Shown here: positions 245 to 3,800 of the stretch, one piece after another | How the letters are laid out: each line of letters opens with the position of its first letter | Numbering within the stretch: the first letter of the stretch is position 1 | The notes under the pieces: generated by a model | Database searches by the model: none | What the model saw: the letters and a program-made list of their open reading frames with translations, nothing else | Told to the model about the DNA's origin: nothing | Virus record (IMG/VR): IMGVR_UViG_2597489870_000007 | Reading direction: 5' to 3' (one strand) | Origin: a virus | Lineage: Duplodnaviria; Heunggongvirae; Uroviricota; Caudoviricetes | Length of the DNA stretch: 48,718 nt | Translations under genes and position numbers: made by a program

Positions 245-817
245 TCACAGCTCAGGCCATACGATATCCGGGGCTGTATTTATATCAATCCGACTCACTA
301 ATACCCGGTATTTTTTCCAGGAAGATAGCATCGAGACCTCCTCATCAGTTGCCATTTCAAAATTAACAGCATCCTGCAGAATTGTTATGTTATCAGTCGC
401 TTCCTGGATTAATCTTGTCTTTTTCTCTTCCGCCTCCCGGATCCGGAAGAGTTTTTCTGCTTCCGTATCCTTCACCCAGGCTGTGCCGTTCCACTTCTGA
501 AACTCCCCTCCCGGCGACAACCAGGTAACATTTTCCGGTAACGGACCGAGTTCAGAAATAAATAACGCGTCGCCGGAAGCCACGTCATAGACGGTTTTAC
601 CCCGATGGTCTTCAACGAGATGCCACGATGCCTCATCACTGTTGAAAACAGCCACAAAGCCAGCAGGAATATCTGGCGGTGCAATATCGGTACTGTTTGC
701 TGGCAGACCTGTATGAGGTGGAATATATGCGTCACCGTCACCAATAAATTCATTAGTTCCGGCCAGCAGATTATAAATTTTGATGGTTCGTGATTGTTCA
801 CTCATTCTGAATGCCAT
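245..817 (-). CDS. tfa: Tail fiber assembly protein
   Basis: 190-aa ORF starting [24 protein letters not shown], the conserved N-terminus of lambdoid Tfa; directly follows stf. Confidence 0.85.
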
Positions 818-3800
818 TATGCAAGCCTCACAATATAGTTAAATGCGATGTTTTTGACGGTGTTTTCCGCGTTACCAGCAGCGTTAACGGTGATGGTGTG
901 TCCATGTGAGCCAATCGCAACGGAGTGCGTATGAGCACCAATACCGACAGTATGTGTATGCGCCCCAGCACTTGCTGCAGTACCTGATACTGAGTGGGTA
1001 TGCGCGCCAGCAGAATTCGTTGCACCTAAGTGAGTTTGAGCAGAGTTCGACGAAGCTACTCTACCGGAGCTAACGTTAGCATTATCCCCCTGAGATATCG
1101 GATGCGTATGTGCACCTGCTGAAGCTGCTGTTCCGCTAACGCTATGGGTATGCGCACCAGTGTTATTCGTAGATTTAGTTCCATAATCAAACGATGATGT
1201 GTTTTTTGTCCCTAAATCTGTATTTGAAGCACTGGCGCTGTGGGTGTGCGATTTAATGCCGTCCTGTTCCTGAGACAATACGGCACGACCACTGGCGGGC
1301 TTGCCCTTAATCGTCCAGCCACGCATATCAGGGATCACGCCTGACGGATAAGCGGCTGCAAGTTTCGGGTAAGCAGATTTGTCAAAAGTCTGCCCCTGCA
1401 TCAGGGCATAACCAGACGGAACGGTATCTGATGGCCACGGGATTGGTGCGCCGACTGGGTAGCTTTCTGGTGGAAGATTTTTCGAGGTATAAACTTCTGC
1501 CCAGTCTTCCTCAAAACCATAACCGTCTCTTGAAGAACGGTAGAACAGACCACCATTTCTGTAATGCGCCTTCATCTGCAGGGTCCGGCAACTTCCGACT
1601 CCGGTATAGAAGTTAACCAGAATATAGCTGTCGCCAGAGCGGGTGACATTGTAAGCGCCTGATTCGGCATTCCAGGGAACGCCACCATCCGCATCGGCAT
1701 ATGTATCCGTTGCCCTTCTGGCAAAAGCAGCCACATGCGCGGCGGTTAAAGTAATATCTTTTGAACCATCAAACTCAACCCCAGAAACCAGTCTTGGCGT
1801 TTGCAGCTTTGTTGCTGTCAATGCGTTACCGTTCAGACTTGCAGACAGCTTGGTTCCAATAACCAGTTCGCCGGTTGCGTTATCAATAGCAAACGGTCTT
1901 AATGTATTCCATCCACCATAAACATCACCTTGATTGGTAAGCAGCAGGTAAGTTTTAGCGCCATCATTACGCCATAATGCCCCATACTATACTCCCCACC
2001 TATCATTCGAATCTGATTACCACCACGCGCTACAATTTCGTCTGTGGCAAAAAGTTTTTTGCACGACAAGTTATCGTTAACGATTAACGAATGAGACTCA
2101 TAAAAACCACGCCCACTCTTAAAATCAAGGATAACGTCCGCCGCGATACATTCAGTCGCTGGATTTGTTGCCCCAAACTTATAGGTCGTATCATTAACAA
2201 CGAGATCAGCACCAGGTGCGGATATTGACAGGCCATCTTCGATAAACGCAAAAACAGGGAAAGCAGCGCCATCAACATAGAACACAGAGCGCAAATCATC
2301 GCCCTTATTACTCATCATTATTGAGTGGATGGCTCGTTCATTGTTTTGATATTGCCAGAACATTCCATAAGCATAACGCCCCCTGTCAGTCCAGCCACCA
2401 GGCATAACAAATCCGTTAAACTCGCAGTTATTCATCGGATCGCCTGCGGTTCGCGTTGCCGTGGTGATAATGACCCTTGATGCCAGTTCGCTTACTGAGC
2501 CAGCAGAACGCATAACAACAACAGGGTAATATTTTCCAGATGTTGCACCTGCAGGAGCGTTAACCCGCACATAACGCATACCACGCTTATCAGCAAAGTC
2601 TGTTTTACTGACCGCGTTAATGTTGTTCAGGAAGCGTCCCTTATCGGGTATATCAGCGCCGTTCTGGTCTTTCTGCAGACATTTCTCTGCATTGTCATAG
2701 GCTGCTTTTACTGCCTTTGGCGTTGCCGCCAGCGTTTCAGACGTGCTGTTGGTCGCACTGCTGAGCTGTACTATCCCCTTTTTCGTCGTGCTCGCATCCT
2801 CAAGCGCCACGGCGGATGCAATATCCTCTGCCCGTTTTGCCGCTGTCTCGGCGCGCGTTGCCGCGGATTCCGCCGTACTTTTGCTCTGAGCTGCCGCCGT
2901 CGCACTGCCAGCTGCCTCTGTCGCCTTCGTGGATGCCGTCGTGGCGCTGCCCTTTGCTGCTGACGCCTGTCTGGTCGCCTCATCTTTTGAAGCAGACGCA
3001 GATGATGCCGATGACGCCGCCGAACTGGCGGACGATGCGGCAGCCGTTTTTGAGGATTCTGCGCTGGTTTCCGACGCTTTCGCGTTCGTCTCGGATGTCT
3101 TCGCTGCGGAAGCAGACCTCGCTGCTGCGCTGGCCTGTACAGCGGCTTCGCCAGCATTCGTTGTGGCTGTTGAAGCGGACGATGCAGCACTTTCTGCCGA
3201 TTTTCCGGCGGCGGTGGCACTGGCTGAGGCCTGCCCGGCACTTGTTGACGCGGCACTGGCAGACGACGCAGCCGCTGTTTTTGAGCCTGCCGCAGCTGAG
3301 GCGCTCTGTCCCGCTGCCGTTTCAGAAGACCTGGCGTTCGTCTCGGACGTTTTTGCCGCCTTCGCAGAATTTGCTGCCGCCGTTGCCGAGGAAGCTGCGC
3401 TGCTGGCGCTCGAGGCTGCGTTCGTTTCTGATGATTTTGCCGCCTCTTTTGAAGCCGACGCATCCCGTGCTGAAGTGGCTGCTTCTGACGCTTTCGTGGT
3501 CGCAGTGGATGCAGAAGTGGCTGCTGATTGTTGTGACACTGCCGCATTCGTTTCTGACGTTTTCGCCGCACCGGCACTGGTAGCCGCCGCGCTTTTTGAG
3601 GACTCTGCAGCGGCAGCACTTTTTGATGCCTCAGAGGCTTTTGCTGATGCCGTTCCTGCGCTGGAAGACGCTGACTGAGCCGACGACGCGGCCTGTCCGG
3701 CTGACGTGCTGGCTGCACGTGCTGAGCCTGCAGCATCAGTCGCATGGGTTGCCGCCTCACGGGCAGATGTGCTGGCATCACTGGCTGACTTCTTCGCGGC

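What the first reader, a model, noticed from the sequence alone, without database searches (positions are those of the whole stretch)
817..1100. His-rich GAHTH repeats near the stf C-terminus
The distal tail-fiber region reads [22 protein letters not shown]...[40 protein letters not shown], repeated GAHTH pentads just before the receptor-binding tip. His-rich repeats could coordinate metal ions or form part of a beta-helical trimerisation motif.
Basis: seen in the sequence. Interest (0 to 1): 0.35.

Follow-up and report, generated by a model that had tools for sequence, protein, structure and literature searches.

The report
Iron-binding histidine motifs of tail fibre
The histidine-rich GAHTH repeats are the well-known metal-binding His-x-His motifs of a phage T4 gp37-type tail-fibre tip, carried here by a lambda-like prophage of E. 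coli H10407 whose fibre gene is broken by a frameshift, so the finding is real but ordinary.

Summary
The repeats are real. The 334-aa ORF at 817..1821 (-) has seven His-x-His motifs, five of them GAHTH; no shuffle out of 20,000 reached seven. The given interval clips them: they span window 898-1248.

Residues 119-334 are 69% identical to T4 long-tail-fibre protein gp37 residues 811-1026 (PDB 2XGF, E 3.6e-89). The seven motifs align one-to-one with gp37's seven His pairs. In the solved trimer those pairs coordinate seven iron ions along the needle axis.

All 14 motif histidines are conserved in 86-100% of 120 homologues plus T4. The 31 residues between motifs 3 and 4 are only 21% conserved. 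So the receptor-binding head lies between the repeat groups, not after them.

The metal-binding idea is therefore right, and already known for T4 gp37 and lambda Stf. 'Beta-helix' and 'just before the tip' are not right.

The window is a lambdoid prophage of ETEC H10407. Its stf gene is a pseudogene, frameshifted by a 5-bp tandem duplication at 1984-1993 that is private to this strain. Tail gene U is also split by an IS element, so the fibre tip is probably not made here.

Low interest; already known.

The parts
817..4175 (-). stf (StfR-like side tail fibre) gene, a pseudogene in this genome. The intact orthologue is 1117 aa.
   Evidence: RefSeq annotates it as 'prophage tail fiber N-terminal domain-containing protein, frameshifted'. 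Pfam finds phage_tail_N at the N-terminus and gp37_C, Collar and Phage_fiber at the C-terminus. Intact 1117-aa orthologues exist in TW14425 and KS-NP019.
1984..1993 (-). 5-bp tandem duplication (AGTAT AGTAT on the coding strand) that frameshifts stf about 390 codons before its end.
   Evidence: Alignment with three orthologues shows a 5-nt insertion only in the window. The reading frames switch at [12 protein letters not shown]. Among 1367 E. coli records matching a 68-nt probe, only H10407 and SEC470 carry it.
817..1821 (-). 334-aa ORF downstream of the frameshift, i.e. the distal part of the fibre. It comprises the gp37_C / Mu-S-like domain, the collar, the needle and the head.
1309..1452 (-). 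Phage tail collar domain core (ORF aa 124-171). By alignment to gp37 811-881, the whole collar is about aa 119-190.
   Evidence: Pfam PF07484 E 1.8e-12. Alignment to 2XGF. Domain limits come from PMC6957217.
1240..1248 (-). HxH motif 1 (SHTH, H192/H194), aligned to T4 gp37 H883/H885.
   Evidence: His present in 122/122 sequences.
1144..1152 (-). HxH motif 2 (GAHTH, H224/H226), aligned to gp37 H915/H917.
   Evidence: His present in 105/122. The exceptions are mostly variants with one repeat fewer.
1102..1110 (-). HxH motif 3 (GAHTH, H238/H240), aligned to gp37 H929/H931. In T4, alanine substitution of either histidine abolishes plaque formation.
   Evidence: PMC6957217. His present in 119-120/122.
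1009..1101 (-). Hypervariable head, the predicted receptor-binding tip (aa 241-271, [31 protein letters not shown]).
   Evidence: Only 21% mean identity to the query across 122 sequences, against 86-98% in the flanks. Different sequence and length in phages mEp332 and Turner. Spacer of 28-51 aa across homologues. Corresponds to the gp37 tip residues that bind OmpC/LPS (PMC6957217).
961..1140 (-). DNA-level mosaic cassette: 40-83% nt identity to mEp332 and Turner, with 93-100% in most 30-nt bins of the flanks. It is bracketed by HxH motifs 2 and 5.
   Evidence: Sliding identity. The phage BLAST hits split into 2 pieces covering 86-89% of the query.
994..1002 (-). HxH motif 4 (GAHTH, H274/H276), aligned to gp37 H966/H968.
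   Evidence: His present in 122/122.
952..960 (-). HxH motif 5 (GAHTH, H288/H290), aligned to gp37 H980/H982.
   Evidence: His present in 122/122.
925..933 (-). HxH motif 6 (GAHTH, H297/H299), aligned to gp37 H989/H991.
   Evidence: His present in 121-122/122.
898..906 (-). HxH motif 7 (SHGH, H306/H308), aligned to gp37 H998/H1000.
   Evidence: His present in 122/122.
820..897 (-). Conserved C-terminal segment ([26 protein letters not shown]) that returns to the collar. It differs from T4 gp37 at only three positions.
   Evidence: 98% mean identity to the query across homologues over aa 311-334. gp37 1010-1026 is part of the collar domain (PMC6957217).
245..817 (-). tfa, the tail fibre assembly chaperone. 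Its start overlaps the stf stop (TAATG).
   Evidence: Pfam Caudo_TAP E 1.9e-37. RefSeq 'tail fiber assembly protein'. The overlap was read from the sequence.

Best explanation
The GAHTH repeats are the seven His-x-His metal-ligand motifs of a T4 gp37-type 'needle'. They sit in the distal part of a lambda-like side tail fibre (Stf/StfR).

In the assembled homotrimer, each motif from the three chains meets on the fibre axis. Six imidazoles (two from each chain) coordinate one iron ion octahedrally. This gives seven ions in a row that rivet the intertwined chains together.

The chain runs outward through motifs 1-3 and forms a small hypervariable head (aa 241-271, window 1009-1101) that contacts the host receptor. 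It then runs back through motifs 4-7, so its conserved C-terminus ends in the collar domain. Folding needs the Tfa chaperone encoded immediately downstream.

The conserved GxHxH units also bracket the DNA cassette that differs between phages, so head exchange leaves the metal scaffold intact.

In this genome (ETEC H10407) the module is probably silent. A strain-private 5-bp duplication frameshifts stf about 390 codons upstream of the stop, and tail-terminator gene U is split by an IS66-family element.

Shown here: the sequence, the homology, the conservation pattern, the mosaic boundaries and the frameshift. Inferred from the T4 structure and genetics: iron binding, trimer geometry and receptor-binding role. 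Not determined: which receptor this head type recognises.
For: Sequence homology: 2XGF (T4 gp37 tip) matches ORF aa 119-334 at E 3.6e-89, with 69% identity and 2 gaps over 216 aa.

Motif mapping: the seven HxH motifs map one-to-one to gp37 H883/885, 915/917, 929/931, 966/968, 980/982, 989/991 and 998/1000. This numbering agrees with the iron-binding H929/H931 reported in PMC6957217.

Published function: seven iron ions are coordinated by paired histidines in gp37 (PMC6957217, PMC11705849).

Domains: Pfam finds Collar, Phage_fiber repeat and gp37_C, and Caudo_TAP in the next gene.

Conservation: motif histidines are kept in 105-122 of 122 sequences, while the lone non-motif His264 is not conserved. 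Mean identity to the query is 94% in the collar, 86% and 90% in the two needle halves, 98% at the C-terminus and 21% in the head.

Cassette: head sequence and length differ between mEp332, Turner and the window, with conserved flanks.

Age of the repeat: the two 19-aa units are identical in protein but share only 38/57 nt. This points to purifying selection on an old repeat.

Pseudogene status.

Against: No metal binding, trimerisation or receptor binding was measured or modelled here.

The only structure prediction available was a monomer, and it failed (mean pLDDT 50). It neither supports nor contradicts the geometry.

Some homologues have 5, 6, 8 or 9 HxH motifs, so the number of metal sites is not fixed in the family.

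The identity of the metal (Fe2+ in T4) is assumed to carry over.

In this strain the segment lies downstream of a frameshift, so it may have no present function.
Confidence: 0.9

Rival explanations
1. The primary significance of the GxHxH units is at DNA level. They would be conserved 'His-box' recombination sites that let phages swap, duplicate or delete the receptor-binding head cassette. Metal binding would be secondary.
For: The DNA segment that diverges between this prophage and phages mEp332 and Turner (window about 961-1140) is bounded by HxH motifs 2 and 5.

Head length varies from 28 to 51 aa, and HxH number from 5 to 9.

One homologue (P0074 / L007) has motif 3 joined in frame to motif 5 and has lost the head.

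From memory, not retrievable in the library: Tetart et al. 1996/1998 described recombination between His boxes in T-even gp37.
Against: Within the window the repeat units share at most 11 identical nucleotides in a row and are 67% identical overall. That is a poor substrate for homologous recombination.

Even orthologous units in different phages are only 68-72% identical at DNA level while the protein is conserved. Selection therefore acts on the protein, not on the DNA.

The histidines are essential ligands in T4 (PMC6957217).

This is best seen as a side effect that complements the structural role, not an alternative to it.
Confidence: 0.05
2. The segment is an inert relic. Because stf is frameshifted and the prophage is defective, the repeats have no function in this genome and are simply decaying sequence.
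For: A 5-bp duplication at 1984-1993 breaks the frame. RefSeq marks stf 'frameshifted', gpU as split by ISCro1, and a KilA-N gene as split by an IS3-family element. The first possible start in the downstream frame is a TTG at 1821, and it lies 78 nt after the upstream stop.
Against: The C-terminal 334 aa are identical to those of the intact TW14425 gene, and there is no further damage. Inactivation is therefore recent, and the sequence still encodes a complete, family-typical module.

This rival describes the present state in H10407, not what the repeats are. It is compatible with the best explanation and is already folded into it.

The frameshift rests on one genome sequence. SEC470 has the identical record length and may be the same strain.
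Confidence: 0.04
3. This is the 'Ferrojan horse' reading. The iron held by the HxH motifs would be functional bait that lets the fibre engage siderophore or iron-uptake receptors, not merely a structural rivet.
For: The hypothesis exists in the literature for HxH-bearing fibres (cited in PMC11705849; modelled in bioRxiv 10.1101/674382). Nothing found here speaks for it specifically.
Against: In gp37 the ions lie along the core of the needle and are liganded by six histidines each. Receptor contacts map to the surface residues of the tip, and the known receptors are OmpC and LPS (PMC6957217, PMC12617516).

The variable part of the protein is the head, not the metal sites.
Confidence: 0.01

Closest known systems
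Bacteriophage T4 long tail fibre protein gp37, receptor-binding tip (PDB 2XGF; domains D10 collar and D11 needle)
   Same: 69% identity over 216 aa. Same collar, the same seven HxH motifs in the same order and with nearly the same spacing, and the last 16 residues ([15 protein letters not shown] and the residue before it) identical. A dedicated chaperone gene lies immediately downstream.
   Different: The head between motifs 3 and 4 is unrelated in sequence and 1-2 aa shorter, so receptor specificity is probably different. The host fibre is a 1117-aa siphophage side fibre with a lambda-type N-terminus (PF08400), not a myophage long-tail-fibre distal half. The chaperone is a lambda Tfa-type protein (Caudo_TAP).
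Side tail fibre Stf of Ur-lambda (orf-401 + orf-314 in lambda PaPa) and StfR of E. coli prophages
   Same: Same gene position (J, lom, stf, tfa), the same N-terminal domain and the same gp37-like distal needle (PMC12617516). PGAP names intact orthologues stfR. Like lambda PaPa, this copy is inactivated by a frameshift inside stf.
   Different: DNA similarity to lambda itself is confined to the last 151 nt, at 86%. The protein is longer (1117 aa against 774 aa for Ur-lambda Stf; the latter figure is from memory). The frameshift is a different event: a 5-bp duplication here, against a single-base deletion in PaPa (from memory).
T4/lambda-type receptor-binding-protein family of enterobacterial prophages (e.g. 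Citrobacter rodentium phage PhiNP ORF6; PMC9659904)
   Same: The same roughly 215-aa gp37-homologous C-terminal module on temperate-phage fibres.
   Different: Different head cassette. No receptor data exist for this allele.
Phage Mu tail fibre protein S (PDB 8JU3) and Pfam gp37_C
   Same: ORF aa 30-124, upstream of the collar, match at E 1.3e-21 and match PF12604.
   Different: This concerns the domain before the repeats. In the 8JU3 hit only this upstream domain aligns.

Membership tests
T4 gp37-type receptor-binding tip (collar + iron-stapled needle + head) | Significant full-length sequence similarity to the crystallised gp37 fragment | tested here: met
   phmmer against PDB: 2xgf_A at E 3.6e-89, query 119-334 against chain 27-242. 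BLASTP gives 69% identity and 2 gaps.
T4 gp37-type receptor-binding tip (collar + iron-stapled needle + head) | Seven HxH motifs aligned with the gp37 iron ligands | tested here: met
   All seven align without shift. H929/H931 numbering was cross-checked against PMC6957217.
T4 gp37-type receptor-binding tip (collar + iron-stapled needle + head) | Phage tail collar domain N-terminal to the needle, with the C-terminus returning to it | tested here: met
   PF07484 E 1.8e-12 at aa 124-171. The C-terminal 16 aa are identical to gp37, and gp37 1010-1026 belongs to the collar (PMC6957217).
T4 gp37-type receptor-binding tip (collar + iron-stapled needle + head) | Conserved scaffold with a hypervariable head between the ascending and descending needle halves | tested here: met
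   Mean identity to the query is 86-98% in the flanks and 21% in aa 241-271 over 122 sequences. A DNA mosaic is also seen.
T4 gp37-type receptor-binding tip (collar + iron-stapled needle + head) | Dedicated assembly chaperone encoded directly downstream | tested here: met
   tfa at 245-817 (-), Caudo_TAP E 1.9e-37, start overlapping the stf stop.
T4 gp37-type receptor-binding tip (collar + iron-stapled needle + head) | Homotrimer with octahedrally coordinated Fe ions on the three-fold axis | not testable with these tools
   Only monomer prediction is offered, and the monomer model had pLDDT 50. Metal content needs experiment or a multimer prediction with ions.
Lambdoid side tail fibre Stf/StfR | N-terminal prophage tail fibre domain (PF08400) and gene order J, lom, stf, tfa | tested here: met
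   PF08400 E 5.7e-72 at aa 3-136 of the upstream ORF. Neighbours are annotated gpJ, Ail/Lom and tail fiber assembly protein.
Lambdoid side tail fibre Stf/StfR | Single intact reading frame, i.e. a functional gene | tested here: not met
   A 5-bp duplication at 1984-1993 splits the gene into 760-aa and 334-aa ORFs. RefSeq marks it 'frameshifted'. It is therefore a pseudogene copy of a family member.
Pfam PF03335 Phage_fiber (phage tail fibre repeat, 14 aa) | Score above the curated cut-off | tested here: met
   39.4 bits against a cut-off of 20, E 3.6e-10 for the whole protein. No single repeat passes on its own.

The most novel reading that the evidence does not exclude
The two 19-aa units flanking the head ([19 protein letters not shown], aa 222-240 and 272-290) are identical in protein but use different codons at 13 of 19 positions, including three AGC/AGT-to-TCA serine switches.

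The most novel reading not strictly excluded is selection on the DNA to be dissimilar. That would prevent repeat-mediated in-frame loss of the receptor-binding head, of the kind seen in the single variant P0074, while the protein is held to the same metal-binding sequence.

The plainer reading fits the data as well. This is an ancient internal repeat under strong purifying selection with saturated synonymous sites. Six identical codons of 19 is about what my own rough estimate (not computed with a tool) gives for random codon choice. Orthologous units in other phages are equally diverged at DNA level.
Probability: 0.07. Interest if true: 0.3.

Novelty: already known. Interest (0 to 1): 0.1.

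Why it matters
It matters little as a discovery. His-x-His iron sites in the gp37 needle have been known since the 2XGF structure, and the gp37-like distal end of lambda Stf is textbook phage biology.

The practical value is annotation. The analysis locates the receptor-binding head of this stf allele (window 1009-1101) and the conserved scaffold around it. These are the boundaries one would use to graft heads when engineering fibre specificity.

It also shows that this H10407 prophage cannot make side fibres, because stf is frameshifted. It probably cannot make tails at all, because U is split by an IS element.

Tried and rejected
(1) AlphaFold2 monomer prediction of aa 119-334 with a 44-sequence alignment gave mean pLDDT 50 and pTM 0.17. 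This is expected for an obligate intertwined, metal-stapled trimer. I ran no fold search on it because matches to a low-confidence model are meaningless.

(2) Tandem Repeats Finder found no DNA tandem repeat in 817-1400. The repeat finder found only five 18-nt copies at 72-89% identity. I therefore rejected the idea of a recent DNA duplication or a slippage-prone array.

(3) I considered the 'disordered His-rich linker' idea and rejected it, given the homology to a crystal structure and near-invariant histidines.

(4) I tested whether the exact identity of the two 19-aa units reflects gene conversion. DNA identity is 38/57, with at most 11 matching nucleotides in a row. A/B identity across 102 homologues ranges from 10 to 19 of 19. 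This window is the top of a continuum, so I rejected gene conversion.

(5) I looked for the original papers. The 2XGF paper (doi 10.1073/pnas.1011218107) is not held. A search on 'His box' with gp37 returned no paper using that term. Statements about those papers rest on secondary citations (PMC6957217, PMC11705849) or on my memory, and are marked as such.

(6) I checked whether the frameshift is widespread. It is in only 2 of 1367 matching records.
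Full report
**Where the window comes from.** The stf-tfa segment (window 245-4181) is 100% identical to the chromosome of enterotoxigenic E. 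coli H10407, NC_017633.1. The RefSeq annotation of NC_017633.1 5072386-5121104, read as a reverse complement, matches the window's ORFs along its whole length. The window is therefore one lambdoid prophage, running from the integrase at 47495-48718 to the tail fibre assembly gene at 245-817. The finding lies in the last gene but one, the side tail fibre gene stf.

**Observation.**
- It has five GAHTH pentads, at window 1144-1158, 1102-1116, 994-1008, 952-966 and 925-939.
- Adding SHTH (1240-1248) and SHGH (898-906) gives seven His-x-His motifs.
- Fourteen of the ORF's 17 histidines sit in these pairs.
- In 20,000 shuffles of the protein the mean count of H-x-H was 0.81, and none reached seven.
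- The interval given (817-1100) clips the feature.
- At DNA level the repeat is faint. Five 18-nt copies are 72-89% alike, and Tandem Repeats Finder reports nothing.

**What it is.** A search of all PDB sequences puts ORF residues 119-334 on the crystallised receptor-binding tip of phage T4 long-tail-fibre protein gp37. The hit is 2XGF at E 3.6e-89, with 69% identity and two gaps over 216 residues.

Pfam independently finds three families in this ORF and one in the next gene:
- the phage tail collar domain;
- the 14-residue phage tail fibre repeat;
- gp37_C;
- the Caudo_TAP chaperone family, in the downstream gene.

The seven H-x-H motifs align one-to-one with gp37 H883/885, H915/917, H929/931, H966/968, H980/982, H989/991 and H998/1000.

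Published work on gp37 states the following:
- The needle carries seven iron atoms along its length, each held by a histidine motif contributed by the three subunits.
- H929 and H931 are iron ligands, and alanine substitution of either abolishes plaque formation (PMC6957217).
- The same point is summarised in PMC11705849, which also notes that the motifs are conserved in lambda.
- For lambda, a 2025 structural study describes the distal part of the Ur-lambda side fibre as six intertwined chains, structurally homologous to gp37. [quoted passage not shown]
- A T4/lambda-type receptor-binding family in prophages has also been described (PMC9659904).

**Conservation test.** A database search with aa 119-334 returned 1521 proteins at E <= 1e-5. 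I aligned the best 120 together with T4 gp37.
- Motifs 1, 4, 5 and 7 have His in 122/122 sequences.
- Motif 6 has His in 121-122, motif 3 in 119-120 and motif 2 in 105.
- The motif 2 exceptions are mostly alleles with one repeat fewer.
- The one histidine outside a motif (H264) is not conserved.
- Mean identity to the query is 94% in the collar, 86% in the ascending needle and 21% in aa 241-271. It is 90% in the descending needle and 98% at the C-terminus.
- Motif number per homologue is mostly 7 (93 of 120), with a range of 5-9.
- The spacer between the two double-motif units is 28-51 aa.

**Topology.** In gp37 the collar is made of residues 811-881 and 1010-1026 (PMC6957217). The chain therefore leaves the collar, runs to the tip and returns. 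Here, motifs 1-3 are the outward half and the hypervariable 31 residues (window 1009-1101) are the receptor-binding head. Motifs 4-7 are the return half. The repeats thus flank the tip; they do not precede it.

DNA comparison with phages mEp332 and Turner shows 93-100% identity across most of the flanks. Identity falls to 40-83% within window about 961-1140, i.e. between motifs 2 and 5. This fits head-cassette exchange with the metal scaffold retained.

**The two identical 19-mers.[19 protein letters not shown] occurs twice (aa 222-240 and 272-290).
- The two copies share only 38/57 nucleotides and 6/19 codons.
- The longest identical run between them is 11 nt.
- Orthologous units in other phages are equally diverged at DNA level, at 39-45 of 57 nt, while the protein is conserved.
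- Unit-to-unit protein identity across 102 homologues ranges from 10 to 19 of 19.

I read this as an old internal repeat under strong purifying selection. It is not gene conversion, and it does not require selection for recoding.

One homologue from a short metagenomic contig (P0074, L007) joins motif 3 to motif 5 in frame and lacks the head. This is a single anecdotal example of deletion between the units.

**State of the gene in this genome.** stf is not intact.
- The coding strand reads GGTGGGGAGTATAGTATGGGGCA, where three orthologues read GGTGGGGAGTATGGGGCA (one has GGT for the second GGG). This is a tandem duplication of AGTAT at window 1984-1993.
- It splits the gene into a 760-aa ORF (1899-4181) and the 334-aa ORF.
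- Intact orthologues are 1117 aa. The TW14425 protein is identical to the window over the last 334 residues.
- A 68-nt probe across the site matches 1367 E. coli records. Only H10407 and SEC470 carry the duplication, and SEC470 has the same record length.
- RefSeq marks the gene 'frameshifted'. It also shows gpU split by an IS66-family ISCro1 element and a KilA-N gene split by an IS3-family element.

The fibre tip is therefore very probably not produced by this strain. The lesion is recent, because the downstream part shows no further decay.

**Structure prediction.** The tool predicts monomers only. The model of aa 119-334 with a 44-sequence alignment had mean pLDDT 50. That is uninformative for an obligate intertwined trimer, so I ran no fold search. 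The 69% identity to a solved structure carries the structural argument instead.

**Verdict.**
- The metal-binding interpretation is right by strong homology, but it is already established for this family.
- The 'beta-helix' and 'before the tip' details are wrong.
- In this genome the module sits in a pseudogene of a defective prophage.
- Novelty: already known. Interest: low.

Noticed in passing
window 1984-1993: A 5-bp tandem duplication (AGTAT x2 on the coding strand) frameshifts stf. It is found only in H10407 and SEC470 among 1367 matching E. coli records. This is reminiscent of the stf frameshift of laboratory lambda PaPa, but it is a different event.
   Followed up: yes
window 15113-17728 (+), flanked by 14977-15108 and 17760-18035 (-): An IS66-family element (ISCro1; tnpA, tnpB and the transposase) is inserted in the tail terminator gene U. 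RefSeq annotates two partial gpU pieces on either side, so the prophage is tail-defective.
   Followed up: partly
window 43485-47312 (-): A 1275-aa protein with a SIR2_2 domain lies next to the integrase. RefSeq annotates it as the anti-phage defence-associated sirtuin Dsr1, so this is a defence gene carried as prophage cargo.
   Followed up: partly
window 32828-34056 (-): RefSeq annotates an IS3-family transposase (programmed frameshift) that interrupts a KilA-N domain gene in the early region. This is a second IS hit in the same prophage.
   Followed up: no
window 1-234 (+): This is the 3' end of a hexapeptide-repeat 'serine acetyltransferase' gene placed just beyond tfa on the opposite strand. 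It is a moron-like cargo gene at the prophage end and is also present next to the UTME-3 orthologue.
   Followed up: no
window about 2750-3800: The N-terminal half of Stf is an Ala/Ser/Thr-rich region with recurring KTSETNA-like units. The long ORFs on the opposite strand and in other frames (2771-3781, 2816-3583, 2929-3678) look like compositional artefacts of this region.
   Followed up: no
L007 988-1902 (Logan ERR3061932 contig): This homologue has HxH motif 3 fused in frame to motif 5, so it lacks the head. Its N-terminus matches a tape-measure family (TMP_2). It may be a degraded or chimeric prophage fibre gene, and it rests on a single 3.1-kb contig.
   Followed up: partly
window 28652-29704 (-) and 34949-35602 (-): There are two DNA methyltransferase genes in the prophage. 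One has an N6_N4_Mtase domain, and RefSeq annotates the other as a phage N-6-adenine methyltransferase.
   Followed up: no
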